Shown: in pieces, positions 4,834 through 20,674 of the stretch
How positions within the stretch are numbered: the stretch's first letter is position 1
Layout: every line of letters starts with the position of its first letter
From: an uncultured Caldithrix sp.
Lineage (GTDB): Bacteria; Electryoneota; AABM5-125-24; Hatepunaeales; Hatepunaeaceae
Length of the DNA stretch: 64,000 nt
Direction: 5' to 3'
Assembly: GCA_964355675.1 (NCBI GenBank)
Contig: CAYHEC010000006.1
Location: 1-64,000 of the forward strand
Made by a program: the position numbers and the translations under genes
Notes under the pieces: generated by a model
Told to the model about the DNA's origin: nothing
Databases searched by the model: none
The model's input: only the letters and a program-made list of their open reading frames with translations

Positions 4834-7581
4834 ATGCCATTAAGTTGGAATGAAATCCGCGCGCGAGCGACAAAGTTCGCCAAGGACTGGGAAAATACTT
4901 CTTCGGAGAAAGCTGAAGCTCAAACCTTTTGGAATGAGTTTTTTGAAGTTTTTGGCGTATCGCGACGACGAGTAGCATCTTTTGAGCATCATGTCAGCCC
5001 TCGTCCTGAGAGTGGCGGTATCATTGACCTTCTTTGGAAAGGTATTGTTCTTATTGAGCACAAATCGCGCGGAAGGAACCTCGATCGGGCTTATGAGCAA
5101 GCTATCAGTTATTTTCCAGGAATAGAGAACCGTGACCTTCCACGTTACATCCTTGTCTCGGACTTTGCCCGACTTCGACTTTATGATTTGGAGACGTCTG
5201 AAGTACATGACATCCTGCTAATAGACTTTCCATTACATGTTGATATGTTTGGATTCATCGCTGGATATGAAACGCGCTCATTTGGGCAGGAAGACCCCGT
5301 TAACATAAAAGCTGCAATGAAGATGGGGGAGTTGCATGATGAACTCTCTGACGCTAAATACAAAGGTCACAGGTTAGAGGCACTTCTTATTCGTCTTTTG
5401 TTCTGCATGTTCGCAGATACTACTGGAATATTCCAGCGCGGTCAATTCAGAGAATACCTTGAACTCCGCACGTTAAAGGACGGGTCTGATTTAGGAAATC
5501 AACTTGGAATGGTGTTCCAAGTCTTGAACCAGCCCGAAAATGAACGCCAGTCAACCCTCGACGAGCAATTGGCTCTTTTCCCTTATGTGGATGGAAAATT
5601 ATTCGAAGAAGCGCTGCCAATTGCTGCTTTTAATAGCCAGATGCGCGAAATTCTGCTTGATTGCTGCAAACTCGATTGGGGGAAAATCAGCCCGGCGATC
5701 TTCGGGTCGATCTTTCAATCGGTCATGGATCAGGCAGAGCGACGTCGCACTGGAGGTCACTATACTTCAGAGACGAATATCTTAAAGGCTCTAAAGCCGC
5801 TCTTTCTTGATGACCTGGAGCGTGAATTTGAGCAAAAATATCATAATATAAGATCTCTCAAAGCACTTCATAAAAAAATCGCGAAGCTGAAAATACTCGA
5901 TCCCGCCTGCGGATGCGGTAATTTTCTTTCCATCGCCTATCGTGAGTTACGGTTCTTAGAGATCAAAATTCTCAGAGAGTTACACAAGAACTCGCCAGAA
6001 TTTTTCTCGCTTGAAACTTCTATCGTTCTAAACGTCAATCAATTCTATGGCATAGAGATCAATGAATTTCCTGCACAGATAGCCCAGGTATCGATGTGGC
6101 TCACCGATCACCAAATGAATATTTTCGCCTCTACTGAATTTGGACAGATGAAGGAGAGTATCCCACTTCGGTCATCCGCCAATATTATTCAGGGAAACGC
6201 CCTGCAGCTCGATTGGGCGAAACTGGTTAAGCCGAAAGACCTTTCTTATATCGTCGGTAATCCTCCGTTTATCGGGGCAAAACACCTTGATGCAGATCAG
6301 GTGAAGGAGCGGAACAGTATATTCACCGGAGTGCCGAATGCTGGAGTTCTCGACTATGTTTGTTGTTGGTACAAAAAGGCTGCCCAGATTATGAATGCGC
6401 ATCCACATGTTCGCGCTGCATTTGTATCTACGAACTCAATAACACAGGGAGAGCAGGTCGGTGTGCTCTGGAATGACCCGACGATGAGAACTGTGAACAT
6501 CAAGTTTGCCCACCGAACTTTTCAATGGATGAGCGAGTCGAGGGGGAAAGCCGCTGTTCATTGCGTGATTATCGGGCTTTCGAGCCAAAATACGAACGGC
6601 AAGATCATCTTCGAGTATGACAATGTTAAGGCTGAACCTAAGGCAATAAAGGCATCTCAGATTAATCCTTATTTGGTTGATGCGCCGACAATTCTATTGC
6701 CAAATCGGAGCACTCCTCTCTGCCAGGTCCCTTCGATTGGTATTGGGAATAAACCTATCGATGATGGAAACTATCTGTTCACGCCTGAAGAGAAGATTCG
6801 ATTTCTGTTGAAAGAACCAAATGCAGCAAAATGGTTCCGCAGGTGGATTGGAGCCGATGAATTTATCAACGGAATCGAACGCTGGTGCTTATATCTAAAG
6901 GACTGTTCCCCATCTGAATTGAAAGCAATGCCCGAGGTGCTCAAGCGGGTAGAAGCTGTAAGGCAATTCCGTTTGAAGAGCATTGCAAAAAGCACCCGTG
7001 ACTTAGCTTCAAAACCGACGCGCTTTCATGTTGAGAATACTCCTGTAGGAGTCTGCCTAATAATCCCAGAAACATCTTCCGAACACCGTGGTTATATTCC
7101 AATTGGTTTTATTACAGATGATTATATATGCAGCAATAGGGTTAAATTAATGCATGATCCAGCCATGTACCACTTTGGCGTATTAACATCTCACATGCAT
7201 ATGGCATGGGTTCGAGCTGTGACGGGCAGATTGGAAAGCCGATATAGTTATTCCATCGGAATTGTTTATAATAACTTTGTGTGGCCTGATCCAACCCCTG
7301 CACAACGTGCCGTAATCGAGAAGCTTGCAAAGGAAGTACTCAACGAGCGTGACCGTTGGCCCGCTGAGACTTTAGCCGACCTCTACAACCCAAACACAAT
7401 GCCGACGAATCTTGTGAAGGCACACAAGAAATTGGACAAAGCCGTTGATGCTGCGTATGGCAAGAAGGACTTTGCTTCTGAGGCGGAGCGAGTTGCTTTT
7501 CTCTTCCAAAAATACCAAGCATTGACAAATGGATTTCTTCCTGTCGAAAAACATGTTGGCAGACGGGTTAGTAAACGATAA
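4834..7581 (+). CDS. MmeI-family type IIL/IIG restriction-modification enzyme (fused endonuclease / N6-adenine methyltransferase / target-recognition domain)
   Basis: 915 aa, close in length to MmeI (919 aa); N-terminus MPLSWNEIRARATKFAKDWENTSSEKAEAQTFWNEFFEVFGV...FEHHV matches the conserved MmeI-family N-terminal nuclease region; amino-MTase motif IV NPPF at ~6259-6270 (IVGNPPFIG). Confidence 0.85.
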   Translation: MPLSWNEIRARATKFAKDWENTSSEKAEAQTFWNEFFEVFGVSRRRVASFEHHVSPRPESGGIIDLLWKGIVLIEHKSRGRNLDRAYEQAISYFPGIENRDLPRYILVSDFARLRLYDLETSEVHDILLIDFPLHVDMFGFIAGYETRSFGQEDPVNIKAAMKMGELHDELSDAKYKGHRLEALLIRLLFCMFADTTGIFQRGQFREYLELRTLKDGSDLGNQLGMVFQVLNQPENERQSTLDEQLALFPYVDGKLFEEALPIAAFNSQMREILLDCCKLDWGKISPAIFGSIFQSVMDQAERRRTGGHYTSETNILKALKPLFLDDLEREFEQKYHNIRSLKALHKKIAKLKILDPACGCGNFLSIAYRELRFLEIKILRELHKNSPEFFSLETSIVLNVNQFYGIEINEFPAQIAQVSMWLTDHQMNIFASTEFGQMKESIPLRSSANIIQGNALQLDWAKLVKPKDLSYIVGNPPFIGAKHLDADQVKERNSIFTGVPNAGVLDYVCCWYKKAAQIMNAHPHVRAAFVSTNSITQGEQVGVLWNDPTMRTVNIKFAHRTFQWMSESRGKAAVHCVIIGLSSQNTNGKIIFEYDNVKAEPKAIKASQINPYLVDAPTILLPNRSTPLCQVPSIGIGNKPIDDGNYLFTPEEKIRFLLKEPNAAKWFRRWIGADEFINGIERWCLYLKDCSPSELKAMPEVLKRVEAVRQFRLKSIAKSTRDLASKPTRFHVENTPVGVCLIIPETSSEHRGYIPIGFITDDYICSNRVKLMHDPAMYHFGVLTSHMHMAWVRAVTGRLESRYSYSIGIVYNNFVWPDPTPAQRAVIEKLAKEVLNERDRWPAETLADLYNPNTMPTNLVKAHKKLDKAVDAAYGKKDFASEAERVAFLFQKYQALTNGFLPVEKHVGRRVSKR

Positions 7582-7762: not shown

Positions 7763-9061
7763 TTGGAACCTAACATGACCTCATCACACATCAGCCGCAT
7801 CTTCCTTGCGGCAACCTTGATTGCCTTCTCCCGCTTCGCCCCCGCCTGCCCCTCCGGCCATCCGGAAGCATGCCCGGACGACAACTGCGCCCCCATCCCA
7901 AAGGACAACCTCCACAGCACTCAGGAAGAAAACTGGCAGAAGTACGCCAACAACCCCGTCTTCCTCGGCGTCGAAGGCGAATGGGACGCCGGGCCGACCT
8001 GCTTCGTCGTCAGACACTTCCCCTGGGGCTACATGATGATCTACTCAGCCGGAGGAAACTTCGGCAGTGGCTTCGGGCTGGCAACCTCCGAAGACGGCAT
8101 CACTTGGGAGCGCCACCCCAACAACCCGATCATGGTTCCCGACTCAGGCGTCGTCGTCTGGGGACCAGAACTCCTCCACGACGGCGAACGCTACCACCTC
8201 TGGTACGTCTCCAGCGGCATGGACCAGTCCGGCATCTCGCACGCAACCTCGGACGACGCGGTTCACTGGACTCAATCCGAAAACAACCCCGTCATCGACC
8301 ACGGCGGTTGCCACGCAGTGATCTGGGACGGCGAGCAGTACCGCATCTTTATTCAGCACGCTTCCGGCAGACAGCACGGCTTCGAACTGCAAGTCTCGGC
8401 GGATGGAGAATCTTGGGAGACCCGCGGCTTCACCTTCCGCTCGGGATCGGTCGGTAATTGGGACGAGATCACCGCCGCGCCGTCGGTGGCGTATTACGAA
8501 AACCAGCTCCACCTCTGGTACACCGGAGCCGATACCGTTGGCAACCGACGCGGCGAGATTGCTATCGGTCATGCCGCCTCCGACAACTGGGGCGACTCCT
8601 TCAAAATCCCCGAAGTGCGCACCGACCTGCGAGCCCTCAGGCCTACTGAACAGTGGGAGGGGAGAGGGCTCTACTCATCAGGGATTGACTTCGACGGGGA
8701 TTCGGTGAAGGTCTGGTACGCGGCGACGGGAGCCAACGGCGGGTTCGGGTTTGCCTCGAGAGCAGTTAATGCAGTAGCTCCCCGGACTGATGACCGAGCT
8801 GTCGAGCGGGCTCTCTGGAGCATTTCTCCCAATCCAGCGGCGGGAGGCGCGGTGAAGATCAACTATCTGGGGCGTCTCTCTGCTCCGGCGATAGTCAGGC
8901 TGTACGACGCTGGCGGGCGGATGGCATACCAGAAGGTTTTCGGAGCTAACGAGCCGATGCGGGTTGATCCGGCGGCGCTGGGCTTGCCGGTGGGGGAGTA
9001 CATCGTGCAGATAGTGGTTGGGAGCAAGGTTGTGCATCAGCGGCTTGCGGTGGTGAAGTGA
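7763..9061 (+). CDS. Secreted five-bladed beta-propeller glycoside-hydrolase-like protein (GH43/GH130-like fold) with Por/T9SS-type C-terminal domain
   Basis: Signal peptide; repeated W/NNP motifs (ANNPVF…GEWD, HPNNPIM, ENNPVIDHGG) typical of beta-propeller GH families; C-terminus …VKINYLGRLSAPAIVRLYDAGGRMAY…GEYIVQIVVGSKVVHQRLAVVK. Confidence 0.4.
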   Translation: MEPNMTSSHISRIFLAATLIAFSRFAPACPSGHPEACPDDNCAPIPKDNLHSTQEENWQKYANNPVFLGVEGEWDAGPTCFVVRHFPWGYMMIYSAGGNFGSGFGLATSEDGITWERHPNNPIMVPDSGVVVWGPELLHDGERYHLWYVSSGMDQSGISHATSDDAVHWTQSENNPVIDHGGCHAVIWDGEQYRIFIQHASGRQHGFELQVSADGESWETRGFTFRSGSVGNWDEITAAPSVAYYENQLHLWYTGADTVGNRRGEIAIGHAASDNWGDSFKIPEVRTDLRALRPTEQWEGRGLYSSGIDFDGDSVKVWYAATGANGGFGFASRAVNAVAPRTDDRAVERALWSISPNPAAGGAVKINYLGRLSAPAIVRLYDAGGRMAYQKVFGANEPMRVDPAALGLPVGEYIVQIVVGSKVVHQRLAVVK

Positions 9062-9120
9062 GATTAGCGGTAGCGGGGTTGCGAAAGGTCGGTGCGGGGT
9101 TTATCTTAGGGTATCGGGGA

Positions 9121-9236
9121 GGATAGGCATTCCTGCCTGTCTGTCAGTACGATAGGCATTCCTGCCTGTCTGTCAGTACGATAGGCATTCCTGCCTGTCT
9201 GTCAGTACGATAGGCATTCTTGCCTGTCAATTCAGG
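9121..9236. repeat. Tandem repeat, 30-bp unit 'ataggcattcctgcctgtctgtcagtacg' x3 plus a degenerate 4th copy
   Basis: Direct reading. Confidence 0.9.
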
Positions 9237-9282
9237 AGGACGGATCTCCGCATCCGTCCACTTCGTCCACTTCGTCCACCTT

Positions 9283-9360
9283 GCGTCTTTGGGATGGCGT
9301 TCAGAGTTCACAACTTCAGTGTGTCTTGCGTTCAGAGTTCACAACTTCAGTGTGTCTGGC
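9283..9360. repeat. Direct repeat of ~33 bp 'gcgttcagagttcacaacttcagtgtgtct' x2, preceded by 'cgtccacttcgtccacttcgtccacc' triplet
   Basis: Direct reading. Confidence 0.85.
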
Positions 9361-9564
9361 GTTGATCTGGTCGCTGAACCCGACTCGCGTAGAGGCCGAT
9401 GCCGACGCTTCGGCATCGTGCCCAAATTCCCAGTACGACAGGCGTCCCTGCCTGTCACATTTGATACCGGTACGGGCGAATTTATTCGCCTGTCTTTGAA
9501 GTTTTTAATTTACCTGTAAATTCTGGAAAAGAAAGAAAAACAGCACAAGAAAGGGAATCGTACC

Positions 9565-11865
9565 ATGTCTGAGTACTTAGGCAAACTTTTGGTCGATAAG
9601 ACCGAAATAACCAAAACCTTGACCAACCGAAAGAAGAAGCATATCGAGAAGTCCGTCTCAGTCACTACGAAAATGAACAAGGCTGAAACGATGGAGCTAC
9701 TTAAACAGAAAGCAGTGCTTGAAGAAGCCGATGGCTGGGCAATTCTGACAACGAATATGAAATCATTAAGATTAAAAAAGGACAAGCCTAAGGACGAACA
9801 GCTCGAAGATGAGTTATGGGTTATCATGGCTCAGATGGGCTTTAATGAGCTAAGTGATGGGCGATCTTTTACAATCCGAGAGTATCACAGCCTGAGCCCA
9901 AGGCAAATCGACGTTTTTGGGAAAGATGGAGAGACAGCTATATTAATTGAGTGCACTCACTGTAGAGTTCCCCAAAAGAAAGACATGAGCGAGTTGATAA
10001 ATAAGATCGAGAAAATGAAGGGCAATATAGGAAATTCCATTCGAACCCATTATGGAATAGAGTCTCACCTAAAGGTGGGATGGGTAATTGCAACGAAAAA
10101 TATAGAATGGGGAATCGCAGATCTCGAAAAAGCCAAAACATGTAAAATAACAGTATTACGCGAAGAAGAGATAGAATACTACCACAAATTGATTGGCCTA
10201 TTGCGAGAGGCAGCAAAGTATCAATTTCTATCACATGTATTTTCACAAGAGGAAATTAGCGGCTTGGAATTGCCGGTTGCTGCCACTCGTGGGACTATGG
10301 GAGGAAAACCGTTTTACAATTTTTTAATAAGACCTTATCAGCTCTTAAGAATCGCTTATGTGAGCCATAAGGGGAGTCATAATTCGGAGGATATTGAATC
10401 TTATCAAAGAATGCTCAGTCAAAACAGATTAAAAGCAATTGCCGCTTTTATCGACGAAGGAGGGCAATTTCCAACGAATATAGTAATTAACTTAAGAGGC
10501 AAAATTAGATTCGAAAGAGGTATCCCGATTGGTGATTCTTTTGTCGGTACGTTGTACCTACCTCAGATATACGCGTCTTGTTTGATCATAGATGGACAAC
10601 ATAGATTATATGGCTACATGCATAGTCGGAGGGCAAAGGAAGAAAACGATAAGACCACCGTATCTGTGTTGGCATATGACAATATCTCCCCAATGGATGA
10701 AGCCAATTACTTTATAGATATCAACTCTAAGCAAGTCAAGGTTACCGGAAACTTAATTGCTGAATTATACGCAAATTTGCGATGGGATTCTCCGAGGTTT
10801 GACGACAGACTGATATCCCTTTGCACTCGCACCGTCATGGCAATGAATTCAAAATACAGCTCTCCAATATGCGATAGACTTGCCACTACAAATAAGACGA
10901 AATCAAGTATCAGATGTCTTACACTGAAATCGTTTAATGACGGACTGAAGGAGAATCTATTATTTGGCGTAGAGAATAAGCCCGGACCATTATCTGATTC
11001 AAATTCGAAGGATTTATCTAAGACGTTGTCAAAAGGTGTCGAATTGTTAAGTGCGTATCTAAATCTATTCGCAACAGAATTGCCAGATCACTGGAATTTA
11101 GGTAATGACAAAGGCGGATTTCTTGCCACAAATGAGGGAATTCGGTCCTTACTTAAAGTACTGAAAGGCATTCTCTGGTATATAGAATTCAAAGATCATG
11201 TGGTTGTTGACTGCGAACCGCCTGATATAATACTTCCATATGTCAAGATTTATGTTTGGCCAGTTGTCACATTCTTCAAGAATGCTTCTATTCATGAGAT
11301 TCAAAACTATAGAGACACTTCGGGCTCTTTGAAGAATGTGACAAAAAACGCCAATCGAATGATGCAATTGATAAACAGGGAATATAAGGACTTTACCCCT
11401 TCAGGTCTGAAGGATTTCCTTGAAAATATGGACCAAGAGGGTACCCACGAAGCTCATCATTTAATAGATGACTTAGAGAGAAGATTCTATGCTTATGTAA
11501 TTGCTGTATTAAAATCGAATTATGGCGATCTGTATGAGCAGTGGTGGATGGAGGGAATACCCCTTAAAATTAGAAAAGATTGCAATGACCGATATGAGGA
11601 TGAAAAGGGGGTAAAGGCAAGAGAACAATATCTTTCGCTTGGGAATTTCAGGTCAATAGTGACTGATAAATGGGAATTATTTAATAACGAGTTTGATATT
11701 GGCGAAAAAGGTGGGAAGGATAAAAAAACAGATTGGATGTATCGGTTGAACGAAATTCGTAATATCACGCATCATTCAACAAAATGGCCAGCAACTAAAG
11801 ATCAAGTGAATTTTGTTAGGGAAATTCACTCGAAGTTGGAAGGCAGATTCATTGTTCCAAAATAA
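9565..11865 (+). CDS. DGQHR-domain (DndB-like, ParB-nuclease-superfamily) protein with extra N-terminal and C-terminal domains, 766 aa
   Basis: Literal DGQHR motif (…SCLIIDGQHRLYGYMHS…, DNA ~10591-10605) in a context resembling the DndB/DGQHR family; N-terminal ~230 aa has a possible nuclease-like core (…QIDVFGKDGETAILIECTHCR…); AT-rich relative to flanks. Confidence 0.65.
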   Translation: MSEYLGKLLVDKTEITKTLTNRKKKHIEKSVSVTTKMNKAETMELLKQKAVLEEADGWAILTTNMKSLRLKKDKPKDEQLEDELWVIMAQMGFNELSDGRSFTIREYHSLSPRQIDVFGKDGETAILIECTHCRVPQKKDMSELINKIEKMKGNIGNSIRTHYGIESHLKVGWVIATKNIEWGIADLEKAKTCKITVLREEEIEYYHKLIGLLREAAKYQFLSHVFSQEEISGLELPVAATRGTMGGKPFYNFLIRPYQLLRIAYVSHKGSHNSEDIESYQRMLSQNRLKAIAAFIDEGGQFPTNIVINLRGKIRFERGIPIGDSFVGTLYLPQIYASCLIIDGQHRLYGYMHSRRAKEENDKTTVSVLAYDNISPMDEANYFIDINSKQVKVTGNLIAELYANLRWDSPRFDDRLISLCTRTVMAMNSKYSSPICDRLATTNKTKSSIRCLTLKSFNDGLKENLLFGVENKPGPLSDSNSKDLSKTLSKGVELLSAYLNLFATELPDHWNLGNDKGGFLATNEGIRSLLKVLKGILWYIEFKDHVVVDCEPPDIILPYVKIYVWPVVTFFKNASIHEIQNYRDTSGSLKNVTKNANRMMQLINREYKDFTPSGLKDFLENMDQEGTHEAHHLIDDLERRFYAYVIAVLKSNYGDLYEQWWMEGIPLKIRKDCNDRYEDEKGVKAREQYLSLGNFRSIVTDKWELFNNEFDIGEKGGKDKKTDWMYRLNEIRNITHHSTKWPATKDQVNFVREIHSKLEGRFIVPK

Positions 11866-11877
11866 TAGGCGTCTTTA

Positions 11878-13317
11878 ATGGCAAATATCCTACTTATCGA
11901 ACCCGACTATCGTTCCAAATTTCCACCTCTCGGTCTACTAAAACTCAGCACATACCACAAAGACAAAGGTGATGAAGTCAAGTTCTGGAGGGGTCACAGC
12001 GAAGAATATCGAACTCAGAAGTGGGATCGCGTTTATATTGCTACATTATTCACTTGGGAGTTGCCTCGTGCGATTAAGACGATCAAGTATTATTCCGGAT
12101 CAGTCGTTAATCCTGAACGAGACATATTTGTAGGTGGTGTTGCCGCAACATTATACCCACAGTATATCAAAGATAATGCTGTATGCAACCTTATCGAAGG
12201 AACTCTCGATAAGCCTGATAGACTTGAACCTGGCGCTCCAGCAATCGCTGAACTTGTACCGGATTATGACCTCCTGAAACAGGTTGACTATCCCTATTTC
12301 CCGAATGACGCCTATTTTGTCAGAATTACAAAAGGCTGCATCCGATCATGCAAATTTTGTGCTGTCCCAAGGCTGGAAACTGAATATGGCTATCTAAATT
12401 CCGTAGGCAACCAAGTTGTAAGCGTGAAAGCACTTTATGGTGAGCGTAAAAATCTCGTGGTAATGGACAATAACATTCTCGGCATTGAGGATATTGATTA
12501 TCACATCAATGGCATTGCAGAGATTGGTTTTGAACGTGGCGCAACTTTTAAGGGGAAGCGTCGGTATGTAGATTTCAATCAAGGGTTAGATGCTCGGATT
12601 ATTGCCGAGAAACCAGAACTTGCCAAATTACTCGCGAAGATCTGCCTGTCGCCAGTTCGATTGGCATTCGATTTTAATAGCCGTCTCATGGGACGGGCTT
12701 ATAAAGAGGCCATCCATCTTTTAGCTGCGGAAGGTTTCAGGGAATTTACGAATTATCTTTTATTCAACTTCAATGATGCGCCCGAAGATTTATATAGTCG
12801 TCTAATGGTGAATTATGAGCTGAATGACAAATTAAAATTACAAATTACAGGATTCCCGATGCGGTTCATTCCGATGGATGATGTGAAAAGAAATCACATA
12901 TCACAGTTCTGGAAATGGCGTTTTTTACGTAGTATGCAGTGCGTGTTATTGGCTACGAGGGGCTTGGTAAGTCCAAATCCGAGTTTTCTATTCCGGTCGT
13001 TTGGTCAAACCTATGATGAGTTTCTTGAGATATTATCGATGCCTGATAGGTACATAATCTTCAGAAAAGATTATGAAGATAATGATGCAAGTGAGTGGCG
13101 CGATAGTTTTCGCAAGTTGTCTCCTACAGACAGAAATGAATTTTTGGATCTGTTAGGAGTTCTAAATCGTGACCGCGGTCGAGCCAAGACAATCCCAACA
13201 ATTCGAAGAGATTTTCAAAAGCTATTGTTGCATTATTACCCAGATGGTAAAAATGCTCCTCAGACTCCAAGACGAGATATTTTGGTACGACAAGGAGTAT
13301 CTGTTGGATATGATTGA
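11878..13317 (+). CDS. Radical SAM enzyme with N-terminal B12-binding-like (Rossmann) domain
   Basis: CxxxCxxC cluster GCIRSCKFCAVP (Cys codons at 12337, 12349, 12358); N-terminus MANILLIEPDYRSKFPPLGLLKLSTYHKDKGDEV… matches the B12-binding-domain layout of class-B radical SAM proteins; 13-bp gap from upstream DGQHR gene. Confidence 0.7.
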   Translation: MANILLIEPDYRSKFPPLGLLKLSTYHKDKGDEVKFWRGHSEEYRTQKWDRVYIATLFTWELPRAIKTIKYYSGSVVNPERDIFVGGVAATLYPQYIKDNAVCNLIEGTLDKPDRLEPGAPAIAELVPDYDLLKQVDYPYFPNDAYFVRITKGCIRSCKFCAVPRLETEYGYLNSVGNQVVSVKALYGERKNLVVMDNNILGIEDIDYHINGIAEIGFERGATFKGKRRYVDFNQGLDARIIAEKPELAKLLAKICLSPVRLAFDFNSRLMGRAYKEAIHLLAAEGFREFTNYLLFNFNDAPEDLYSRLMVNYELNDKLKLQITGFPMRFIPMDDVKRNHISQFWKWRFLRSMQCVLLATRGLVSPNPSFLFRSFGQTYDEFLEILSMPDRYIIFRKDYEDNDASEWRDSFRKLSPTDRNEFLDLLGVLNRDRGRAKTIPTIRRDFQKLLLHYYPDGKNAPQTPRRDILVRQGVSVGYD

Positions 13318-13527: not shown

Positions 13528-15015
13528 ATGGATACCTTATCCCTCACCGTATTCCTCCCCGTTTTAGGGGTGTTAGTCATTGCGTTTCTGAAAGATGAAC
13601 GGGCAATCAGGACGACCGCCCTCTCATTCAGTCTCTTAGTCTTTCTCGCGTCGCTCCCCCTCTGGTTTGGCTTCGATCCAAGTCAAGGCTTATCAGCGGC
13701 TTCCCTGAAAGAACTGATCCAGTTCGAGACTAATCTCCCCTGGGTCGCCAGCCCTAACATCAACTATCACATAGGCTTGGATGGCATCAGCCTGCTCCTC
13801 GTCATGCTGACGACCTTCCTCACTCCCTTATGTATTTGGGGTTCCTGGACTTCTATCAAGTCAAGACCCAAAGGCTATTACATCTCATTCCTCCTCCTTG
13901 AGACAGGTATGCTCGGTGTATTCAGTGCCTTGGACTTGATACTGTTCTACGTTTTCTGGGAAGCCATGCTGATCCCGATGTACCTCCTGATCGGCGTCTG
14001 GGGCGGCCAAAACCGCGTCTATGCCGCTGTTAAGTTCATACTTTACACGATGGTAGGATCGCTCTTGATGCTTGTCGGCATCATCTGGATGTACTTCAAC
14101 GCTGTCCCCGGTACTAACACCTTCGATTTGCTGACGATAAGCTCCTCCGCCGCGATCCCTCATCAAGCTCAGCTTTGGCTGTTTGCCGCCTTTGCATTGG
14201 CTTTCGCCATCAAAGTCCCGATGTTCCCGTTCCATACCTGGCTTCCCGATGCCCATACCGAAGCCCCCACCGCCGGATCGGTCATCCTTGCCGGGGTGTT
14301 GCTCAAGATGGGAACTTACGGTTTCATAAGGTTTTGCATCCCGCTGTTCCCGGAGGCGGCGAATGAATTCGCCGGTACAATTAGTGTGCTGGCGCTGATC
14401 GGCATCGTCTATGGAGCGTTAGTCACGTTATTACAACCGGATATGAAGCGTCTGATTGCCTACTCGTCGGTTAGTCACTTGGGTTTTGTGATGTTAGGAT
14501 TGTTCGCTTTCAACATGCAGGGCATGCAGGGCGGAATGTTGCAAATGATCAATCACGGGCTGTCAACCGGCGCGCTATTCTTTTTAATTGGCGTGATTTA
14601 CGAGCGACGCCACACGCGGCTGATCGCCGATTACGGCGGTCTGGCGAAAGTCATGCCGAAGTATGCCACCGTGTTTCTGATCGTTGCTCTTTCGAGCATT
14701 GGCTTGCCGGGACTAAACGGCTTTGTTGGGGAATTTCTGATACTTACGGGGGCGTTTAAAGCCAACGCCGCGTTCGGGGTGATCGGAGCGACGGGGGTAA
14801 TTCTGGCGGCGGTGTACTTGCTTTGGATGTATCAGCGGGTGTTCTTCGGCGAGGTAACCAATGACAAAAACAAGGGACTGGCAGACCTGACCCGGACGGA
14901 AATGACGATTTTGGCGGCGATGCTGGTGTTAATTGTCTGGATCGGGGTGCATCCATCGACCTTTACGTCGGTCAGCGAGAACGCCGTGAAGTTCGTGATG
15001 AGCCGGGTCTCGTAA
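13528..15015 (+). CDS. NuoM/NuoL-family proton-translocating antiporter-like subunit (complex I subunit M / Mrp-DabB-like), orphan
   Basis: 495 aa, ~14 TM helices, diagnostic NuoM-like segments (…[21 protein letters not shown]…, …[28 protein letters not shown]…). Confidence 0.8.
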
Positions 15016-15322
15016 AAGATCAGTAGGGCAGGGCGTCACGACCTGTCACATTAGGCTTTTCTTTTGTGACAGACGCGAACGTCTGTCGGGAGGACGGATC
15101 TCCGCATCCGTCCGTTGGGGCATGAAGGCATTGCGCCCGCAGTCAATGGCGCGTCATTCCAGCGCAGGCGGGAATCCAGAAGAGTTAAAACAAAATAGTT
15201 ATTGCAAGTAGTTAATAATGTAGTGCTAACAACTCGTCGGACGGCGATAGTTAGTGCGCAATCTCGGAACTAAATTGCTGAGATCACACTCAATTCCAGT
15301 TAGGGATTTGGAAATTATGAAC

Positions 15323-15619
15323 TCACGACCTCGATTTCAATGCTGCCTGAATGGCGGAATCGCCCTTAATGTACGCTTCGATGGAGTAGATGCGAATTGC
15401 GCATGTTTTTGTGAGAAAGTTTGGTGAAGTTTCTAACACATCAAGCCATTGTCCATACCGTTCATTTTCAGGCACATCATTCACAAGGATAAAGACGTTA
15501 ATACCCTTCTTCACTCTCGCGAGGAGTCTTATCCGAAGTGATTCATTCATTCCGTGACCAGTATAAGGTGGAGGAGTGAACTTTCCTTCAGGCTTATTCA
15601 AACGTTCAACTACTAACAT
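15323..15619 (-). CDS. Hypothetical protein (98 aa) downstream of the HigB/HigA-peptidase pair
   Basis: ORF only. Confidence 0.3.
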   Translation of the reverse strand: MLVVERLNKPEGKFTPPPYTGHGMNESLRIRLLARVKKGINVFILVNDVPENERYGQWLDVLETSPNFLTKTCAIRIYSIEAYIKGDSAIQAALKSRS

Positions 15620-15689
15620 TTGTTCTCCTGAAATTATAAACGAACATTCTCATTGAGTTCTGGCTATACCAATATCTTAATATATCTCG

Positions 15690-16799
15690 CTATTCTTCCT
15701 CCCAGTTTAATGATTGGTGCAAATGATAGTACCAACTTTTTGGCAGAACATTCTTGCGCTGAAGTCTGCCAAGAATTATTCCTGGAGTTATGCCAATCTC
15801 TCGTGCCCAGTTTTCAATTTGAGTATCAGTGATCACTTGAGTCGCCGCTATTCGTTCAATTCTGTTATAAATTTCTGACGGAATAAGCGTGTCGGCAGCA
15901 AACGCGTCTGCCTCTGCCTCAAACGGATTCTCCTTGCTCTGGTGATCCACATCTATGAAGAGGTCACGAGGCTCGTGCAGGAGCACATGGCCAATCTCGT
16001 GGAACAGCGTGAACCAGAAAATGTCAGCGCGCTTCCCGCGCAAGGTGATCTGTACAGATGGATTATTATTCAGCCATCGCGTCACTCCGGAAACCGGAAA
16101 ACTCTCGAATTCCTTCACCATCAGGAACGCAACGCCGCATTCACGACCGATTTTCTCAAGTTTCGGTTGCCACTCTGCACGCAAATGAAGGAGCGTCAGA
16201 CTTCGAATCTCGGGAAGTCGAGCACGTAAAGCATCGGGATTGAACGGTTCGAGTACGCAAGAGTTGTGCGCCTCTTCGCCTATCCTCAACCAAGCCGCAA
16301 GCTTAATCAACGGCAGATCAAACTTCGGGCTTTTGCGGTAGGCGAAAATGCTTTGGTCGAAATAGTTTTCGAGTGCTTCATAACTCGCGACGCGAAGCCA
16401 GTTCAGTGTAGCTCGTAATCGATCAATTGGTTGCTTAAAGTCTTGCAGATAACCGCGCTTAATTAATTCCCGGTACGGGGTGTCTTTAAACTTTTCCATT
16501 TGACGAGTGAGTTGTGCAACCTCTTGGTCACGAGCGAGGGTGTCCTGATAATTCCGCTCGATATTTAGCCAAAAGTATGCTGGCAAGCCGAGAACCCGTT
16601 CAAGCTGAATCGCCGTTTCCTTGGTAATGGCTTTCTTGGCGTTGATGATCTCGCTGATCGCTTGTGGTGGTTTGCCCATTCTGCGCGATAATTCCAACTG
16701 GCTCATATCGCGAGCTTCAAGGACTTCCTTGATGGTCTCGCCGGGAGGAATTGGAATCGGGGGCAAGTATGGTTTGGGTAGCTGATGTTGCTCAGCCAT
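15690..16799 (-). CDS. HigA-like XRE-family HTH antitoxin fused to ImmA/IrrE-family zinc metallopeptidase domain
   Basis: N-terminal HTH (…HPGETIKEVLEARDMSQLELSRRMGKPPQAISEIINAKKAITKETAIQLERVLGLPAYFWLNIERNYQ…) typical of HigA/VapI; C-terminal HEXXH (FHEIGHVLLHE) of COG2856 peptidases; overlaps upstream toxin gene by 8 nt. Confidence 0.75.
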   Translation of the reverse strand: MAEQHQLPKPYLPPIPIPPGETIKEVLEARDMSQLELSRRMGKPPQAISEIINAKKAITKETAIQLERVLGLPAYFWLNIERNYQDTLARDQEVAQLTRQMEKFKDTPYRELIKRGYLQDFKQPIDRLRATLNWLRVASYEALENYFDQSIFAYRKSPKFDLPLIKLAAWLRIGEEAHNSCVLEPFNPDALRARLPEIRSLTLLHLRAEWQPKLEKIGRECGVAFLMVKEFESFPVSGVTRWLNNNPSVQITLRGKRADIFWFTLFHEIGHVLLHEPRDLFIDVDHQSKENPFEAEADAFAADTLIPSEIYNRIERIAATQVITDTQIENWAREIGITPGIILGRLQRKNVLPKSWYYHLHQSLNWEEE

Positions 16800-17160
16800 G
16801 GTAGTCCCTAATATCGGTTATGCGGATGCGGTGAATTTTGCCTAAATCGTATTCCATAGAAGGAACGCCGTCCTCTGATAATGCTGAGAAGCATATTCGC
16901 CAACCGTCCTTCAGTACAACCGCCCACTCTTCTTGACGCGATCCTTGAAGTTTATGTCTTCTTAGCGGGGGCGTGACTGGAACATCTTTCAGACTGTCAA
17001 AAGATTGAAGTTCGACGATTCGCTGAAAGAGCCTTCTCATGTACAACTCGTTACGCAGCTTGCGCCTTGCAGCAGCTTCTGTGGTGCAGATTTTTTCTAA
17101 ACTGCCATTCTTGTAGCTAATATACATGAGCTTTTCCGGAAATGCAATACGCCCGTTCAC
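16792..17160 (-). CDS. higB: HigB-like toxin (RelE/ParE superfamily, 'plasmid maintenance killer protein')
   Basis: …LRRHKLQGSRQEEWAVVLKDGWRICFSALSEDG…IRITDIRDYH matches the HigB/COG3549 signature (…NRLEKLxGDRKGxWSIRINDQWRICFRWEDG…DYH). Confidence 0.7.
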   Translation of the reverse strand: MNGRIAFPEKLMYISYKNGSLEKICTTEAAARRKLRNELYMRRLFQRIVELQSFDSLKDVPVTPPLRRHKLQGSRQEEWAVVLKDGWRICFSALSEDGVPSMEYDLGKIHRIRITDIRDYHG

Positions 17161-17277
17161 CCTATGGGCGAATTATTAAATCGAATAAATTGTTTTCGTT
17201 TCTAGTATGCAAGCCAGCCGAGGCAACAGAGGCTTTGTTTTAGTGACAACACGGACGGTTATCCTAAGCGACGAAAG

Positions 17278-17550
17278 TTAATTTTCAATGGGCTCCCGTC
17301 CCTCTACCAACGGCCCCACCGCGAGGTCTTCGTCGATCAGCGGCCAATGAATGCCGTAGCCGGAGGGGGACATTCTTAACCCCTGTCGCTCCAAGTCCGA
17401 AGCCATGGAGAGAGACAGAGAACATTCCTCCCACTTCAGAAAGTACCGCCCAGCGCCGGTCACAATAGTCAAGCCTTCTTTGGTCGCGCTGACCTCCTTG
17501 GCAAGGATGACCTGTCTCCGGTATTCTACCGGTTGTGCAATTTCTGCCAT
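17278..17550 (-). CDS. DUF2442-family protein (partner of DUF4160)
   Basis: Small protein overlapping the upstream DUF4160 gene by 25 nt; characteristic tail …GYGIHWPLIDEDLAV…. Confidence 0.55.
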   Translation of the reverse strand: MAEIAQPVEYRRQVILAKEVSATKEGLTIVTGAGRYFLKWEECSLSLSMASDLERQGLRMSPSGYGIHWPLIDEDLAVGPLVEGREPIEN

Positions 17551-17777
17551 GCCAGGGTAACCTCCTCTAAATTCTCAAAAATGATTTGACGCACCTCGCG
17601 TCTCAGCGCTGGCGTCATTCGCCAAGCCCAAGCTTCCTCTATCTCGAAGTCATCCACCCGAACCCAATACTTGCATTCCGCGTCGCCCTTTTCAGCGTGG
17701 ACATGCATCGGTTCGATTCCCTCGTTCGGGTAGATGATGATATGCCAGCCATGCTGATAAACGATTGTCGGGCTCAT
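17526..17777 (-). CDS. DUF4160-family protein
   Basis: MSPTIVYQHGWHIIIYPNEGIEPMHVHAEKGDAECKYWV matches the DUF4160 N-terminal signature (…PPHFHA…). Confidence 0.6.
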   Translation of the reverse strand: MSPTIVYQHGWHIIIYPNEGIEPMHVHAEKGDAECKYWVRVDDFEIEEAWAWRMTPALRREVRQIIFENLEEVTLAWQKLHNR

Positions 17778-18561: not shown

Positions 18562-19398
18562 TTACTTCAACCACTTCAGCCACTCCGTCTCGGGCGGCAA
18601 GACCAGCACCGTCGTCGAGTCGATGATCTTCTTGTACGCCTCCATGCTCCTGAAAAAGTCGTAAAATTCCGGGTCCTTGCCAAACGACTTCGCGTAGATG
18701 TCGATCGCCTTCGCCTCAGCCGCCCCGCGGACAGTTTGTGACTCACGGTACGCCTCCGCCATCAGCACCACCTTCAGCGAATCCGCCGCCGCCCGAATCT
18801 TCAACGCCTCTTCCTCGCCCTCCGAACGGTACTGGTTGGCAATCCGCTTCCGCTCAGCACGCATCCGCTCAAAGACCGACTTCTCATTCTGAGGCGGAAG
18901 ATCTGCCCGCTTGATCCGCACATCGACGACCTCGATACCGTAAGCCTTCGCCGCTTCGTTGGTTCTCGCGGTCACCTTCAGCATCAGCTCCTCCCGGTTG
19001 GTCGTCACAACTTCCTCGACGTCGTGCTTGCCAAGCTCGACCCTGAGCTCCGAATAAATGATGTCGTCGAGGCGCGCCTGAGCCCCGTTTTCATCGTGTA
19101 CACTGATGAAAAACTTCAGCGGATCGACGATGCGCCACTTGGCATAGTTGTCGAGAAGCAAGTTCTTCTTGTCCTGCGTCAGGATTTCCGTCGGGCTGGA
19201 GTCGTAGTCCAGTAGCCGTTTGTCAAAATAAGTCACCGCCTGGAACGGCCAGGGCAGTTTCAGGTGCAAGCCCGGTGTGGTGACCGTAGCAACCGGAGCG
19301 CCAAACTGCAACACAATCGCCTGATTGATCTCATCGACCTGGTAAATCGATGATAAGACAAGAATTATGGCTACCGCAATAAGAATCAGCTTATTCAT
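18562..19398 (-). CDS. hflC: Protease modulator HflC (SPFH/band-7)
   Basis: N-terminal TM + SPFH; …LHLKLPWPFQAVTYFDKRLLDYDS…; overlaps hflK by 4 nt. Confidence 0.85.
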   Translation of the reverse strand: MNKLILIAVAIILVLSSIYQVDEINQAIVLQFGAPVATVTTPGLHLKLPWPFQAVTYFDKRLLDYDSSPTEILTQDKKNLLLDNYAKWRIVDPLKFFISVHDENGAQARLDDIIYSELRVELGKHDVEEVVTTNREELMLKVTARTNEAAKAYGIEVVDVRIKRADLPPQNEKSVFERMRAERKRIANQYRSEGEEEALKIRAAADSLKVVLMAEAYRESQTVRGAAEAKAIDIYAKSFGKDPEFYDFFRSMEAYKKIIDSTTVLVLPPETEWLKWLK

Positions 19399-20381: not shown

Positions 20382-20674
20382 TTGGTTTCCTTTTAGTACG
20401 ACAGGCGTCCCTGCCTGTCACCTCATCATTCCGGCGAAAGCCGGAATCTATTCGATTCCCCCCTCCTGCTATTTGCAGGGGGGTGCAGGGGCGTGTCTTT
20501 GCGAGGAATGTAGTGACGAGGCAATCTTAGCACGATGGGTCTCTGTACCCGTCACCATATTTTACCACCCGATAGAACGACAATGTTTCATTCCGTTGTC
20601 AACTTGTTTTCCAATAATTGCAGTAACTTACTAAACATTCCCGCCAGACTGATGATGAGTATTAGGAAATCCAA

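What the first reader, a model, noticed from the sequence alone, without database searches (positions are those of the whole stretch)
9565..13317. Tightly linked DndB-like DGQHR-domain protein and B12-binding radical-SAM enzyme in an AT-rich island next to an MmeI-family RM enzyme
The two genes are co-directional with a 13-bp gap, so they are likely co-transcribed. Both are visibly AT-richer than the flanking GC-rich housekeeping genes, and repeat arrays (9100-9360) lie just upstream. Gene 1 (766 aa) carries the literal DGQHR motif of the DndB/DpdB ParB-nuclease-like family, which is the DNA-modification-sensing or regulating partner in phosphorothioation (Dnd) and 7-deazaguanine (Dpd) systems. 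Here it is embedded in a much larger protein, with a possible nuclease-like N-terminal domain and a ~360-aa uncharacterised C-terminal domain. Gene 2 has a canonical CxxxCxxC radical-SAM cluster preceded by a B12-binding-type Rossmann domain. That is the architecture of class-B radical-SAM methyltransferases that act on unactivated carbons. I am not aware of a described defence or DNA-modification system that pairs a DGQHR protein with a cobalamin-type radical-SAM enzyme. QueE of the Dpd pathway is a small, unrelated radical-SAM. The MmeI-family RM enzyme sits 2 kb upstream. Together this suggests a DNA-directed modification or restriction function, possibly radical-based methylation or an unusual base modification read by the DGQHR protein.
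Basis: partly seen in the sequence, partly recalled or inferred. Interest (0 to 1): 0.85.

Follow-up and report, generated by a model that had tools for sequence, protein, structure and literature searches.

The report
Radical-SAM enzyme paired with DGQHR nuclease-like protein
A two-gene island pairs a three-domain nuclease-like DGQHR protein with a member of a widespread, uncharacterised radical-SAM family that sits at the end of many different defence-type operons and, in relatives, takes the place of a DNA adenine methylase, so it probably marks DNA by an unknown radical chemistry.

Summary
Two co-directional genes, 12 nt apart, lie in a 39-42% GC island. Gene 1 (766 aa) passes the DGQHR model (165 bits, cut-off 58.85). 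Gene 2 (479 aa) has CxxxCxxC and a confident radical-SAM fold.

Gene 1 has three domains: a restriction-endonuclease fold with motif D..E-C-T, a ParB/DGQHR domain, and a Swt1/AbiF-like HEPN domain with invariant Rx4H.

Gene 2 belongs to a strongly conserved family (363 clusters at E<=1e-30; at least 491 species genomes). It is a hub gene:
- In 71 of 77 species-level loci it sits in the same co-directional gene run as a recognisable DNA-targeting module.
- These modules are a GHKL/MORC-like ATPase, PbeA/PbeC, DrmA/B-like genes, ParB-SNF2, short DGQHR proteins, or gene-1 homologues.

Gene-1 homologues pair either with this enzyme or, overlapping, with a Dam-type DNA methylase. On an unsupported tree the partner changed at least four times.

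I therefore read the enzyme as the self-marking (modifying) partner and gene 1 as helper, sensor and effector. This is inferred, not shown.

The class-B/cobalamin assignment is unproven, and the MmeI neighbour is co-location only. I found no description in the literature I could search. Cultured hosts exist: Novosphingobium aromaticivorans pNL1 and Rhizobium leguminosarum WSM1325.

The parts
9565..11865 (+). Gene 1 (766 aa): three-domain protein with a restriction-endonuclease fold, a ParB/DGQHR domain and a HEPN domain
9727..10164 (+). N-terminal restriction-endonuclease-fold domain (about aa 55-200). Motif D116...E129-C130-T131 at 9910-9957.
10282..11172 (+). DGQHR (ParB-superfamily, DndB/DpdB-like) domain, aa 240-536. 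DGQHR motif at 10591-10605.
   Evidence: TIGR03187 165 bits (cut-off 58.85); Pfam DndB 40.7 (cut-off 29.1); PADLOC DpdB 52.9 bits. Far below the equivalog cut-offs for DpdB (54.8 vs 300) and DndB (25.5 vs 328).
11437..11844 (+). C-terminal HEPN domain (about aa 625-760). RNITHH (R732-x4-H737) at 11758-11775.
11866..11877 (+). 12-nt intergenic spacer between the two genes (likely co-transcription)
   Evidence: Sequence. No terminator-like site between the genes. In homologues the pair overlaps or abuts (L176 overlap 4 nt, L177 gap 0).
11878..13317 (+). Gene 2 (479 aa): radical-SAM enzyme of a conserved, unnamed family
   Evidence: Translation. More than 4000 homologues, 54-71% identical across phyla among the best 120 listed. 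Mean column identity 68% in 29 sequences. 363 clusters at 50% identity with E<=1e-30. Model pLDDT 89. No PADLOC hit.
11878..12252 (+). N-terminal flavodoxin/Rossmann-like domain (about aa 1-125), B12-binding-like, with no conserved cysteines
   Evidence: PF02310 E 0.002, 18.4 bits, below threshold. Fold matches span the N-domains of CysS and MiaB, plus the B12-binding protein AerR. No conserved Cys outside the cluster.
12310..12882 (+). Radical-SAM core (about aa 145-335). CxxxCxxC (C154, C158, C161) at 12337-12360.
   Evidence: The three Cys are invariant in 98 sequences. Also conserved: D197-N-N199, D232-F-N-Q-G-x-D238, R261, D265, Y293, D300, R308 and P327-M328. Foldseek to MiaB, RimO, MtaB and CysS at E 1e-9 to 1e-5.
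12910..13242 (+). C-terminal all-helical domain (about aa 345-455), family-specific, with conserved W345, R351, Q354, G362, G376 and R396
   Evidence: Secondary structure of the model and conservation. No Pfam match. It is not a TRAM domain.

Best explanation
The two genes form a minimal, horizontally acquired member of a large, undescribed group of restriction-modification-like systems built around one conserved radical-SAM enzyme.

Proposed mechanism (steps 1-3 are inferred, not shown):
1. The radical-SAM enzyme carries one [4Fe-4S] cluster and has an N-terminal flavodoxin/B12-like domain and a C-terminal helical domain. It places a covalent mark on the host's own nucleic acid, most likely DNA. 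It thereby plays the role that a Dam-type methylase plays for related gene-1 proteins.
2. The DGQHR (ParB/DpdB-like) domain of gene 1 works on DNA with the enzyme, helping it reach its target and/or reading whether the mark is present. The precedent is DpdB, an ATPase needed for DpdA to insert preQ0 into DNA.
3. When unmarked foreign DNA is met, gene 1 acts through its effector domains. These are the HEPN RNase (Rx4H intact), possibly the ParB-type domain, and the restriction-endonuclease-fold domain, whose canonical lysine is replaced by threonine.

Shown here: the domain make-up, the conservation, the recurrent synteny, the hub behaviour of the enzyme, and the Dam/radical-SAM alternation.
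Inferred: the substrate, the chemistry (C-methylation is only one option) and the direction of control.
For: Linkage:
- All three close gene-1 homologues that were looked up lie next to a family member: P0128 convergent, P0129 overlapping, P0125 abutting.
- 23 of the 80 metagenome loci fetched with gene 1 carry one.
- Three cultured alphaproteobacterial plasmids carry a DGQHR / radical-SAM / GHKL triad. N. aromaticivorans pNL1 also has a 769-aa gene-1 homologue (40% identity, full length) next to it.

Hub behaviour:
- 71 of 77 species-level loci place the enzyme in the same co-directional gene run as a recognisable DNA-targeting module.
- These include PbeA (726 bits) / PbeC (557 bits), a DrmB-family protein (96 bits, below its family cut-off of 240) with a large helicase, SNF2 with ParB-like proteins, and GHKL ATPases.

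Displacement:
- 38 gene-1 relatives are paired, overlapping by up to 76 nt, with a D12-class N6-adenine DNA methylase (PF02086; E 1e-47 to 1e-59 for the four representatives scanned) instead of the radical-SAM enzyme.
- In an NJ tree of gene-1 proteins, the radical-SAM-linked members fall in at least 4 separate places among Dam-linked ones.
- In the enzyme's own tree, gene-1-linked members fall in at least 5 clades.

No other marker:
- Among 92 otherwise unclassified co-directional neighbours of the enzyme, no DNA methylase family matched more than one protein.
- Pbe/CxC-ABC systems are known to recruit different modification enzymes (PMC10853773).

Precedent: DpdB, a DGQHR protein, is an ATPase required for DNA modification by DpdA (PMC10164549). 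DpdB is also the best named match of the gene-1 DGQHR domain.

Defence setting: the pair is in an AT-rich island between an MmeI enzyme and further defence-type genes.
Against: - No direct evidence of any DNA modification exists, and no radical-SAM enzyme is known to serve as the modification subunit of an R-M system.
- The enzyme is unusually conserved (68% mean column identity) and has no obvious target-recognition domain. That is unlike most DNA methylases.
- Its nearest solved folds act on tRNA, ribosomal protein or small molecules.
- Gene 1 carries a HEPN RNase domain, so an RNA-centred reading is possible.
- The restriction-endonuclease lysine is lost in the window's clade, so 'restriction' in the classical sense may not occur.
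- The window lacks the GHKL ATPase that accompanies the enzyme in 44% of loci.
- My gene calls in the loci are crude (longest ORFs), and the trees are NJ without support values.
Confidence: 0.5

Rival explanations
1. The radical-SAM enzyme is an effector or helper rather than a self-marker. On infection it damages or modifies the invader's nucleic acid or nucleotide pool by radical chemistry, in the way viperins make chain terminators. Gene 1 and the other modules act as sensors or co-effectors.
For: Radical-SAM enzymes are known defence effectors: viperins, and Ophion's OpnA (bioRxiv 10.1101/2025.09.30.679545). The enzyme is very conserved and has no target-recognition domain, as expected for a universal substrate. 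It is usually the last or next-to-last gene of the operon, like many effectors.
Against: There is no sequence or fold affinity to viperin; the best folds are MiaB, RimO and CysS. It substitutes for a Dam methylase next to the same protein at least four times, and a methylase is not an effector. Its partner modules already carry several nucleases. No nucleotide-handling genes accompany it.
Confidence: 0.2
2. The enzyme modifies RNA (tRNA or rRNA) or a protein. The HEPN RNase of gene 1 reads or is controlled by that modification. The system would then be an RNA-centred abortive-infection or addiction module.
For: The closest solved structures are the tRNA and ribosomal-protein methylthiotransferases MiaB, MtaB and RimO. 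Gene 1 has an invariant HEPN Rx4H motif. A PIN-like protein accompanies the triad on two plasmids.
Against: The methylthiotransferase hallmarks are absent: no auxiliary-cluster cysteines and no TRAM domain. Most partner modules have no RNase but do have DNA helicases, ABC/SMC-type DNA scanners and ParB-type proteins. The alternative partner of gene 1 is a DNA methylase.
Confidence: 0.13
3. The pair serves the mobile element that carries it (plasmid or island maintenance, exclusion of competing elements) rather than defence against phages. The biochemistry may be as in the best explanation, but the biological role differs.
For: The cultured examples are all on large, mostly conjugative plasmids. 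Loci are flanked by integrases, toxin-antitoxin genes and transposases. The window copy is in an AT-rich island bordered by dispersed hairpin repeats.
Against: Many copies are chromosomal and embedded in housekeeping contexts. Partner modules (Pbe, DISARM-like) are established or candidate anti-phage systems. The two roles are not exclusive.
Confidence: 0.1
4. The two genes are unrelated neighbours. Gene 2 would be a metabolic class-B radical-SAM enzyme (lipid, cofactor or natural product).
For: Weak B12-domain similarity. Faint hits to lipid-type B12/radical-SAM families for this protein and a homologue.
Against: Synteny with gene-1 homologues recurs across phyla and in several orientations. 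92% of loci are in defence-type modules. No biosynthetic neighbours were seen. All curated-family scores are far below their cut-offs.
Confidence: 0.02

Closest known systems
Dpd 7-deazaguanine DNA modification-restriction system (DpdA/DpdB/DpdC plus DpdD-K)
   Same: A DGQHR protein is encoded beside a DNA-modifying enzyme and is needed for its action: DpdB is an ATPase required by DpdA (PMC10164549). DpdB is the best named match of gene 1's DGQHR domain. Larger relatives of the window system add SNF2 helicases that match DpdE (146 bits).
   Different: There is no DpdA (TGT) or DpdC and no preQ0 pathway genes. The DGQHR domain scores 54.8 against the DpdB cut-off of 300. The candidate modifying enzyme is an unrelated radical-SAM protein. 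Gene 1 additionally carries restriction-endonuclease-fold and HEPN domains.
Dnd phosphorothioation (DndB with DndACDE) and PbeABCD / CxC-ABC-DndE systems
   Same: DndB is a DGQHR/ParB protein fused to a HEPN domain (PMC3632139), like the core of gene 1. In 12 of 77 loci the enzyme is encoded just downstream of PbeA, PbeC and a small protein. In that position such systems carry varying modification enzymes (PMC10853773).
   Different: DndB scores 25.5 against a cut-off of 328. No DndD/PbeC-like or PbeA-like ORF was found in the window; DndA, DndC and DndE were not searched for. No sulfur-transfer genes lie next to the pair. The enzyme is not related to DndC.
Gene-1-like protein plus Dam-type (D12) methylase pairs (predicted type II-like R-M; sister systems found here)
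   Same: Same three-domain protein family (about 30% identity) with conserved D116/E129, DGQHR and Rx4H motifs. The two genes are tightly coupled.
   Different: The partner is a classical SAM-dependent N6-adenine DNA methylase, and the nuclease motif is the canonical D..E-x-K. In the window the partner is the radical-SAM enzyme and the motif is D..E-C-T.
MiaB/MtaB/RimO methylthiotransferases and class-B cobalamin radical-SAM methylases such as CysS
   Same: Overall layout of an N-terminal flavodoxin/Rossmann-like domain followed by a radical-SAM core. These are the best structural matches (E 1e-9 to 1e-5, TM 0.43-0.51).
   Different: Sequence identity is 10-15%. There are no auxiliary-cluster cysteines and no TRAM domain, and the C-terminal domain is a different, all-helical one. 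Cobalamin binding is unproven.
Prokaryotic MORC/paraMORC GHKL ATPases in R-M operons (Iyer et al. 2008, PMC2292703)
   Same: A HATPase_c_3 GHKL ATPase of about 450-590 aa is the commonest neighbour of the enzyme (34 of 77 loci). It sits among helicases and nucleases, as described for MORC-type R-M systems.
   Different: That paper mentions no radical-SAM partner. The window pair has no such ATPase; the only GHKL protein in the window belongs to a separate Dcm-linked island at 20.7-25.6 kb.
Radical-SAM enzymes already known in defence (prokaryotic viperins; Ophion OpnA)
   Same: Radical-SAM chemistry used in anti-phage systems.
   Different: Those are single-domain, viperin-type enzymes acting on free nucleotides, with other partners (PHP, PRTase). 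There is no specific similarity to the family here.

Membership tests
DGQHR domain family (TIGR03187 / Pfam DndB PF14072; ParB superfamily) | Score above the curated cut-off of the domain model | tested here: met
   TIGR03187 165 bits vs 58.85; PF14072 40.7 vs 29.1
DGQHR domain family (TIGR03187 / Pfam DndB PF14072; ParB superfamily) | Literal DGQHR motif | tested here: met
   D343-G-Q-H-R347 at 10591-10605, invariant in 28 close and about 70 wider homologues
DndB of the Dnd phosphorothioation system | Equivalog-level similarity (TIGR03233, cut-off 328) | tested here: not met
   25.5 bits
DndB of the Dnd phosphorothioation system | Neighbouring dndACDE genes | tested here: not met
   The flanking genes are a GC-rich gene with weak glycosyl-hydrolase similarity and a T9SS sorting signal, and a nuoM-like gene. 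No DndD/PbeC-like ORF is in the window by local profile search. dndA, dndC and dndE were not searched for beyond the adjacent genes.
DpdB of the Dpd system | Equivalog-level similarity (NF041060, cut-off 300) | tested here: not met
   54.8 bits. It is the best named match but far below the cut-off.
DpdB of the Dpd system | Adjacent dpdA (TGT-like) gene | tested here: not met
   The adjacent gene is the radical-SAM enzyme. No TGT-like hit among the neighbours scanned.
Radical SAM superfamily | CxxxCxxC cluster motif | tested here: met
   C154, C158 and C161 are invariant in 98 sequences
Radical SAM superfamily | Pfam PF04055 above the gathering score | tested here: not met
   20.3 bits vs 29.5 for the window protein. 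Several homologues carry a precomputed PF04055 hit.
Radical SAM superfamily | Partial TIM-barrel fold like solved members | tested here: met
   pLDDT 89 model. Foldseek probability 1.0 to MiaB, RimO, MtaB and CysS, and also to MoaA, HydG and NosL.
Class-B (cobalamin-dependent) radical-SAM methyltransferases | N-terminal B12-binding domain recognised by PF02310 | tested here: inconclusive
   18.4 bits vs 32.1, on the isolated N-terminus only. One homologue has a precomputed PF02310 hit, and two are named 'cobalamin-binding' by NCBI. The fold matches CysS and AerR, but equally the MiaB N-domain.
Class-B (cobalamin-dependent) radical-SAM methyltransferases | Bound cobalamin and methyl transfer | not testable with these tools
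   Needs a purified protein
MiaB/RimO methylthiotransferases | Three N-terminal cysteines for the auxiliary [4Fe-4S] cluster | tested here: not met
   No conserved Cys outside C154/158/161; C355 is conserved in only 67%
MiaB/RimO methylthiotransferases | C-terminal TRAM domain and family-level HMM score | tested here: not met
   The C-terminus is all-helical. TIGR00089 scores 16.6 vs 251.
HEPN superfamily (Swt1/Abi2-like) | Rx4-6H motif | tested here: met
   R732-NITH-H737, invariant in all groups
HEPN superfamily (Swt1/Abi2-like) | Family HMM above threshold, or matching fold | tested here: inconclusive
PD-(D/E)xK restriction-endonuclease fold | Fold | tested here: met
PD-(D/E)xK restriction-endonuclease fold | Catalytic D...(D/E)-x-K | tested here: not met
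   D116 and E129 are present, but position 131 is Thr. It is Lys in 36 of 39 Dam-linked relatives.
Classical restriction-modification system | Cognate SAM-dependent DNA methyltransferase next to the nuclease | tested here: not met
   The partner is the radical-SAM enzyme. Relatives do have a D12 methylase.

The most novel reading that the evidence does not exclude
This radical-SAM family is a DNA-modifying enzyme that writes a hitherto unknown, radical-derived mark on DNA. That mark serves as the 'self' label for at least six different restriction-like modules: gene-1 type, short DGQHR with GHKL, Pbe, DISARM-like, ParB-SNF2, and the two GHKL-containing modules of unknown proteins. It would be the first radical-SAM 'M' subunit and a new kind of epigenetic DNA chemistry, spread across bacteria and archaea.
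Probability: 0.4. Interest if true: 0.92.

Novelty: new variant of a known kind. Interest (0 to 1): 0.78.

Why it matters
All known self-marking DNA modifications in defence (methylation, phosphorothioation, 7-deazaguanine) use non-radical transfer onto DNA. A conserved radical-SAM enzyme that replaces a Dam methylase, and that plugs into Pbe-, DISARM- and SNF2/ParB-type modules, would point to a new DNA (or nucleic-acid) modification. It would also explain how several 'methylase-less' defence modules tell self from foreign.

The family is large: 363 clusters at 50% identity and at least 491 species genomes. It is absent from PADLOC v2. It is present on plasmids of cultured, tractable bacteria, so the question can be tested directly by nucleoside mass spectrometry and genetics.

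It also gives a function-oriented handle on a widespread REase-fold / DGQHR / HEPN protein family, and on a GHKL ATPase family that so far has no known role.

Tried and rejected
- PADLOC gave no hit for the radical-SAM protein. NCBIfam gave only sub-threshold hits at the cluster motif.
- A profile search against PDB sequences found only RimO weakly, and nothing for gene 1.
- The AFDB fold library was unavailable. The viral fold library gave only remote COG1032-type matches.
- Seven of the nine literature searches targeted the pairing, with combinations of radical SAM with DGQHR, DndB/HEPN, MORC, PbeABCD, GHKL/defence and DNA modification/anti-phage, and DGQHR alone. None found a description of this family. 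Ophion is a different, viperin-like enzyme.
- I considered the upstream tandem repeats (9122-9363) as part of the system. Their hairpin units recur at other intergenic borders (15.03-15.11 kb, 20.39-20.55 kb), so I treat them as dispersed genome repeats.
- I considered a functional link to the MmeI enzyme. It recurs only in this organism's own contigs, not in any other context I read.
- I considered a methylthiotransferase or RlmN/Cfr-type mechanism and rejected both, because no cysteines are conserved beyond the cluster.
- I considered the 769-aa protein at 22011-24320 as a second gene-1 copy or as the missing GHKL partner. It is a double-GHKL protein linked to a C5 methylase and only faintly similar to the enzyme's GHKL partners.

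Full report
**Observation**

The two ORFs are as stated: 9565-11865 (766 aa) and 11878-13317 (479 aa), both on the + strand and separated by 12 nt.
- Their GC content is 0.391 and 0.417. The gene upstream is at 0.616 and the gene downstream at 0.529.
- The DGQHR motif (10591-10605) and the CIRSCKFC motif (12337-12360) are literal.
- The tandem repeats upstream are real: 29 bp x3.7, 9 bp x2.8 and 31 bp x2.2.
- The MmeI-family type IIG enzyme at 4834-7581 is unambiguous (five MmeI Pfam domains; PADLOC 1174 bits) and ends 1984 bp upstream. A GC-rich gene (7763-9061; weak, sub-threshold glycosyl-hydrolase similarity and a C-terminal T9SS sorting signal just under its cut-off) lies in between.

**Gene 1**

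The central region (aa 240-536) passes the curated DGQHR model (TIGR03187 165 bits vs 58.85; Pfam DndB 40.7 vs 29.1). It is far below the equivalog cut-offs for DpdB (54.8 vs 300) and DndB (25.5 vs 328). It is therefore a DGQHR protein, but neither DndB nor DpdB.

The C-terminal part gives a sub-threshold HEPN_Swt1 hit (E 3.8e-4) and a PADLOC PDC-M34B hit. R732 and H737 (RNITHH, an Rx4H motif) are invariant in every family member examined.

- HEPN proteins: AbiF, AF0298, the Swt1 C-terminal domain, sacsin.
- ParB-like proteins: PadC, KorB.

The N-terminal motif is D116...E129-C130-T131. In relatives paired with a Dam methylase, position 131 is Lys in 36 of 39, giving a canonical D..ExK. In the window's clade it is Thr: 28 of 28 close homologues and 13 of 20 radical-SAM-linked proteins.

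ParB-HEPN fusions, and the ParB+HEPN make-up of DndB, have been noted before (PMC3710099; PMC3632139). I did not find the full three-domain protein with its partners described.

**Gene 2**

The Pfam Radical_SAM score is below the gathering score (20.3 vs 29.5). The B12-binding model matches only weakly, and only on the isolated N-terminus (18.4 vs 32.1).

A pLDDT 89 model matches MtaB, MiaB, RimO and the class-B enzyme CysS at probability 1.0 (E 1e-9 to 1e-5, TM 0.43-0.51, 10-15% identity).

In 98 family members only C154, C158 and C161 are invariant cysteines; C355 reaches 67%. This points to one cluster, no methylthiotransferase auxiliary cluster and no RlmN/Cfr-type cysteine pair. The C-terminal domain is all-helical, not a TRAM domain. 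Cobalamin use is possible but untested.

The family is remarkably conserved and large:
- The best 120 hits are 54-71% identical across Verrucomicrobiota, Methylomirabilota, Desulfobacterota, Chloroflexota and Bacillota.
- Mean column identity is 68% in 29 sequences.
- The 1.84-billion-representative library holds 363 clusters at E<=1e-30 and 1212 at E<=1e-10.
- At least 491 species-level genomes encode a relative.
- PADLOC v2 has no model for it, and sources call it 'hypothetical', 'radical SAM protein' or 'cobalamin-binding domain-containing protein'.

**The enzyme is a hub gene**

I fetched 80 species-level loci, called ORFs crudely and classified the neighbours with local profiles. Representatives were then checked with Pfam, PADLOC and NCBIfam. 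In 71 of 77 loci the enzyme lies in a co-directional run with one of these recurring modules:
- A: two unknown proteins (about 365 and 555 aa) plus a HATPase_c_3 GHKL ATPase (13 loci).
- B: GHKL plus a protein of about 290 aa with weak, sub-threshold PP_RS20740-family similarity (4 loci).
- C: ParB-like, 135-aa protein, SNF2 helicase, ParB-like, with or without a short DGQHR protein (26 loci).
- D: PbeA (726 bits), PbeC (557 bits) and a 148-aa protein (12 loci).
- E: a large helicase, a DrmB-family protein (96 bits, below its family cut-off of 240) and a NERD/UvrD helicase, followed by a long form of the enzyme and a GHKL (7 loci, gut Firmicutes).
- F: the gene-1 type (2 loci plus the window).

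A GHKL ATPase is nearby in 34 of 77 loci, and a DGQHR protein in 9 of 77.

Among 92 otherwise unclassified co-directional neighbours, no DNA methylase family matched more than one protein.

**Cultured examples confirm the DGQHR link**

- N. aromaticivorans pNL1 encodes DGQHR (335 aa), radical SAM (537 aa) and a GHKL 'ATP-binding protein' (507 aa). A convergent 769-aa gene-1 homologue (40% identical over the full length) lies next to them.
- R. leguminosarum WSM1325 pR132505 and Roseomonas mucosa p2-AD3 encode the same triad beside module C.
- The short DGQHR proteins pass TIGR03187 (152-191 bits) but not the DpdB or DndB cut-offs.

**Reverse test from gene 1**

Gene-1 homologues of full architecture are abundant.
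- The three close ones that I looked up all sit beside a family member: P0128 convergent, with a GHKL; P0129 overlapping by 4 nt in a housekeeping context; P0125 abutting.
- Of 80 metagenome loci fetched with the gene-1 alignment, 23 carry the enzyme, in several orientations.
- 38 of the remainder carry a protein of about 240-315 aa within a few dozen nt of gene 1 (from a 76-nt overlap to a 67-nt gap). The four representatives scanned are D12-class N6-adenine DNA methylases (PF02086, E 1e-47 to 1e-59).
- In an NJ tree of gene-1 proteins, radical-SAM-linked members occur in at least four separate places among Dam-linked ones. One Dam-linked protein (L107) already has the E-C-T motif.
- In the enzyme's own tree, gene-1-linked members occur in at least five clades.

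These trees have no support values, so the counts of switches are approximate.

**Interpretation**

A protein that keeps the same three domains and catalytic-type motifs is coupled either to a DNA adenine methylase or to the radical-SAM enzyme. The same enzyme is appended to Pbe-type and DrmA/B-like modules. Pbe-type (CxC-ABC/DndE) systems are reported to recruit different modification enzymes (PMC10853773). The rSAM-linked operons examined here otherwise lack a recognisable methylase.

The simplest reading is that the enzyme supplies the self-mark, most likely on DNA. DpdB gives a precedent for a DGQHR protein as an obligatory ATP-dependent helper of a DNA-modifying enzyme (PMC10164549).

For the window pair I therefore propose:
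- The radical-SAM enzyme marks host DNA.
- The DGQHR domain of gene 1 assists and/or reads the mark.
- The HEPN domain, and perhaps the ParB-type or degenerate REase domain, executes the response to unmarked DNA.

None of these steps is shown; they rest on context. The nature of the mark is open. C-methylation through a cobalamin is one option; the conserved polar residues and the helical C-domain do not decide.

**Rivals**

- Effector-type enzyme: it fits the high conservation and the lack of a recognition domain, but not the exchange with a methylase.
- RNA- or protein-directed enzyme: it fits the nearest solved folds and the HEPN domain, but not the DNA-centred partners.
- Mobile-element maintenance role: compatible with the same biochemistry.
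- Chance adjacency to a metabolic enzyme: contradicted by the synteny.

**Surroundings**

The window is a patchwork of islands:
- MmeI (GC 0.45).
- The pair studied here.
- An HTH plus M78-peptidase gene (PD-Lambda-2_B-like, 117 bits) and small toxin-antitoxin-like ORFs at 15.3-17.8 kb.
- A second AT-rich island at 20.7-25.6 kb, with a C5 methylase, a double-GHKL protein and two unknown proteins.

Dispersed hairpin repeats mark three of the island borders. MmeI recurs next to the pair only in this organism's own contigs.

**Novelty and verdict**

With seven of the nine literature searches directed at it, I found no description of this enzyme family, of its pairing with DGQHR proteins or GHKL ATPases, or of a radical-SAM modification subunit. 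The libraries are incomplete, so prior description cannot be excluded.

I class it as a new variant of a known kind (modification/restriction-like defence). There is a substantial chance (about 0.4) that the chemistry is new in kind. Interest 0.78.

Noticed in passing
window 20675-25584 (- strand): A second AT-rich island (GC 0.39-0.48). It holds a C5 cytosine DNA methylase (24283-25584), a 769-aa protein with two GHKL domains (22011-24320), and two unknown proteins of about 222 aa. It looks like a MORC/paraMORC-type R-M-like system. Its GHKL is only faintly similar (19 bits) to the GHKL partners of the radical-SAM family.
   Followed up: partly
window 9122-9461, 15032-15113, 20393-20554: Dispersed hairpin repeats at island borders. 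AGTACGACAGGCGTCCCTGCCTGTCAC occurs at 9430 and 20393, with a variant at 15032. GGAGGACGGATCTCCGCATCCGTCC occurs at 9232 and 15086 (96% identical). The 29-bp tandem array at 9122-9228 is built from a related unit. They may be REP-like elements or insertion scars.
   Followed up: partly
window 15323-17777 (- strand): An HTH_3 plus M78-peptidase protein (15690-16799; PADLOC PD-Lambda-2_B 117 bits; a HigA-type N-terminus), with an overlapping 122-aa ORF (16792-17160). A DUF2442/DUF4160 small-gene pair lies at 17278-17777. These are likely further defence or toxin-antitoxin genes.
   Followed up: no
window 13528-15015 (+): A lone NuoM/Mrp-antiporter-type membrane subunit gene (Proton_antipo_M, 281 bits) lies between two islands, with no other complex I or Mrp genes beside it.
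   Followed up: no
L107-L169 (metagenome loci), e.g. L123 316-3466: Distant gene-1 relatives (about 30% identity) form tightly coupled pairs with D12 Dam-type methylases and keep a canonical D..E-C-K nuclease motif. This appears to be an unnamed family of REase / DGQHR / HEPN restriction-modification systems.
   Followed up: partly
L171 3078-6631 and L172 11218-14734: In both N. aromaticivorans pNL1 and R. leguminosarum pR132505, a PIN-like protein (about 640-650 aa) plus a second GHKL 'ATP-binding' protein (about 530 aa) lie next to the DGQHR / radical-SAM / GHKL triad. This may be another linked module.
   Followed up: no
L076, L079, L085, L086, L088, L090: Gut Firmicutes carry a long form of the enzyme (670-690 aa, with about 200 extra C-terminal residues). 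It sits between a DrmA/DrmB-like plus NERD-UvrD helicase set and a GHKL ATPase: a DISARM-like array with no recognised methylase.
   Followed up: partly
L173 6001-7083 (Marinitoga camini virus 1): A temperate virus of Marinitoga encodes a shorter, solitary relative of the enzyme (33% identity over aa 1-353) next to HerA/NurA-type genes. It could be an orphan copy used by the virus.
   Followed up: no
window 2070-4094, 18562-19398, 19395-20381: Three SPFH/Band-7 domain genes lie in the GC-rich stretches that flank the islands.
   Followed up: no
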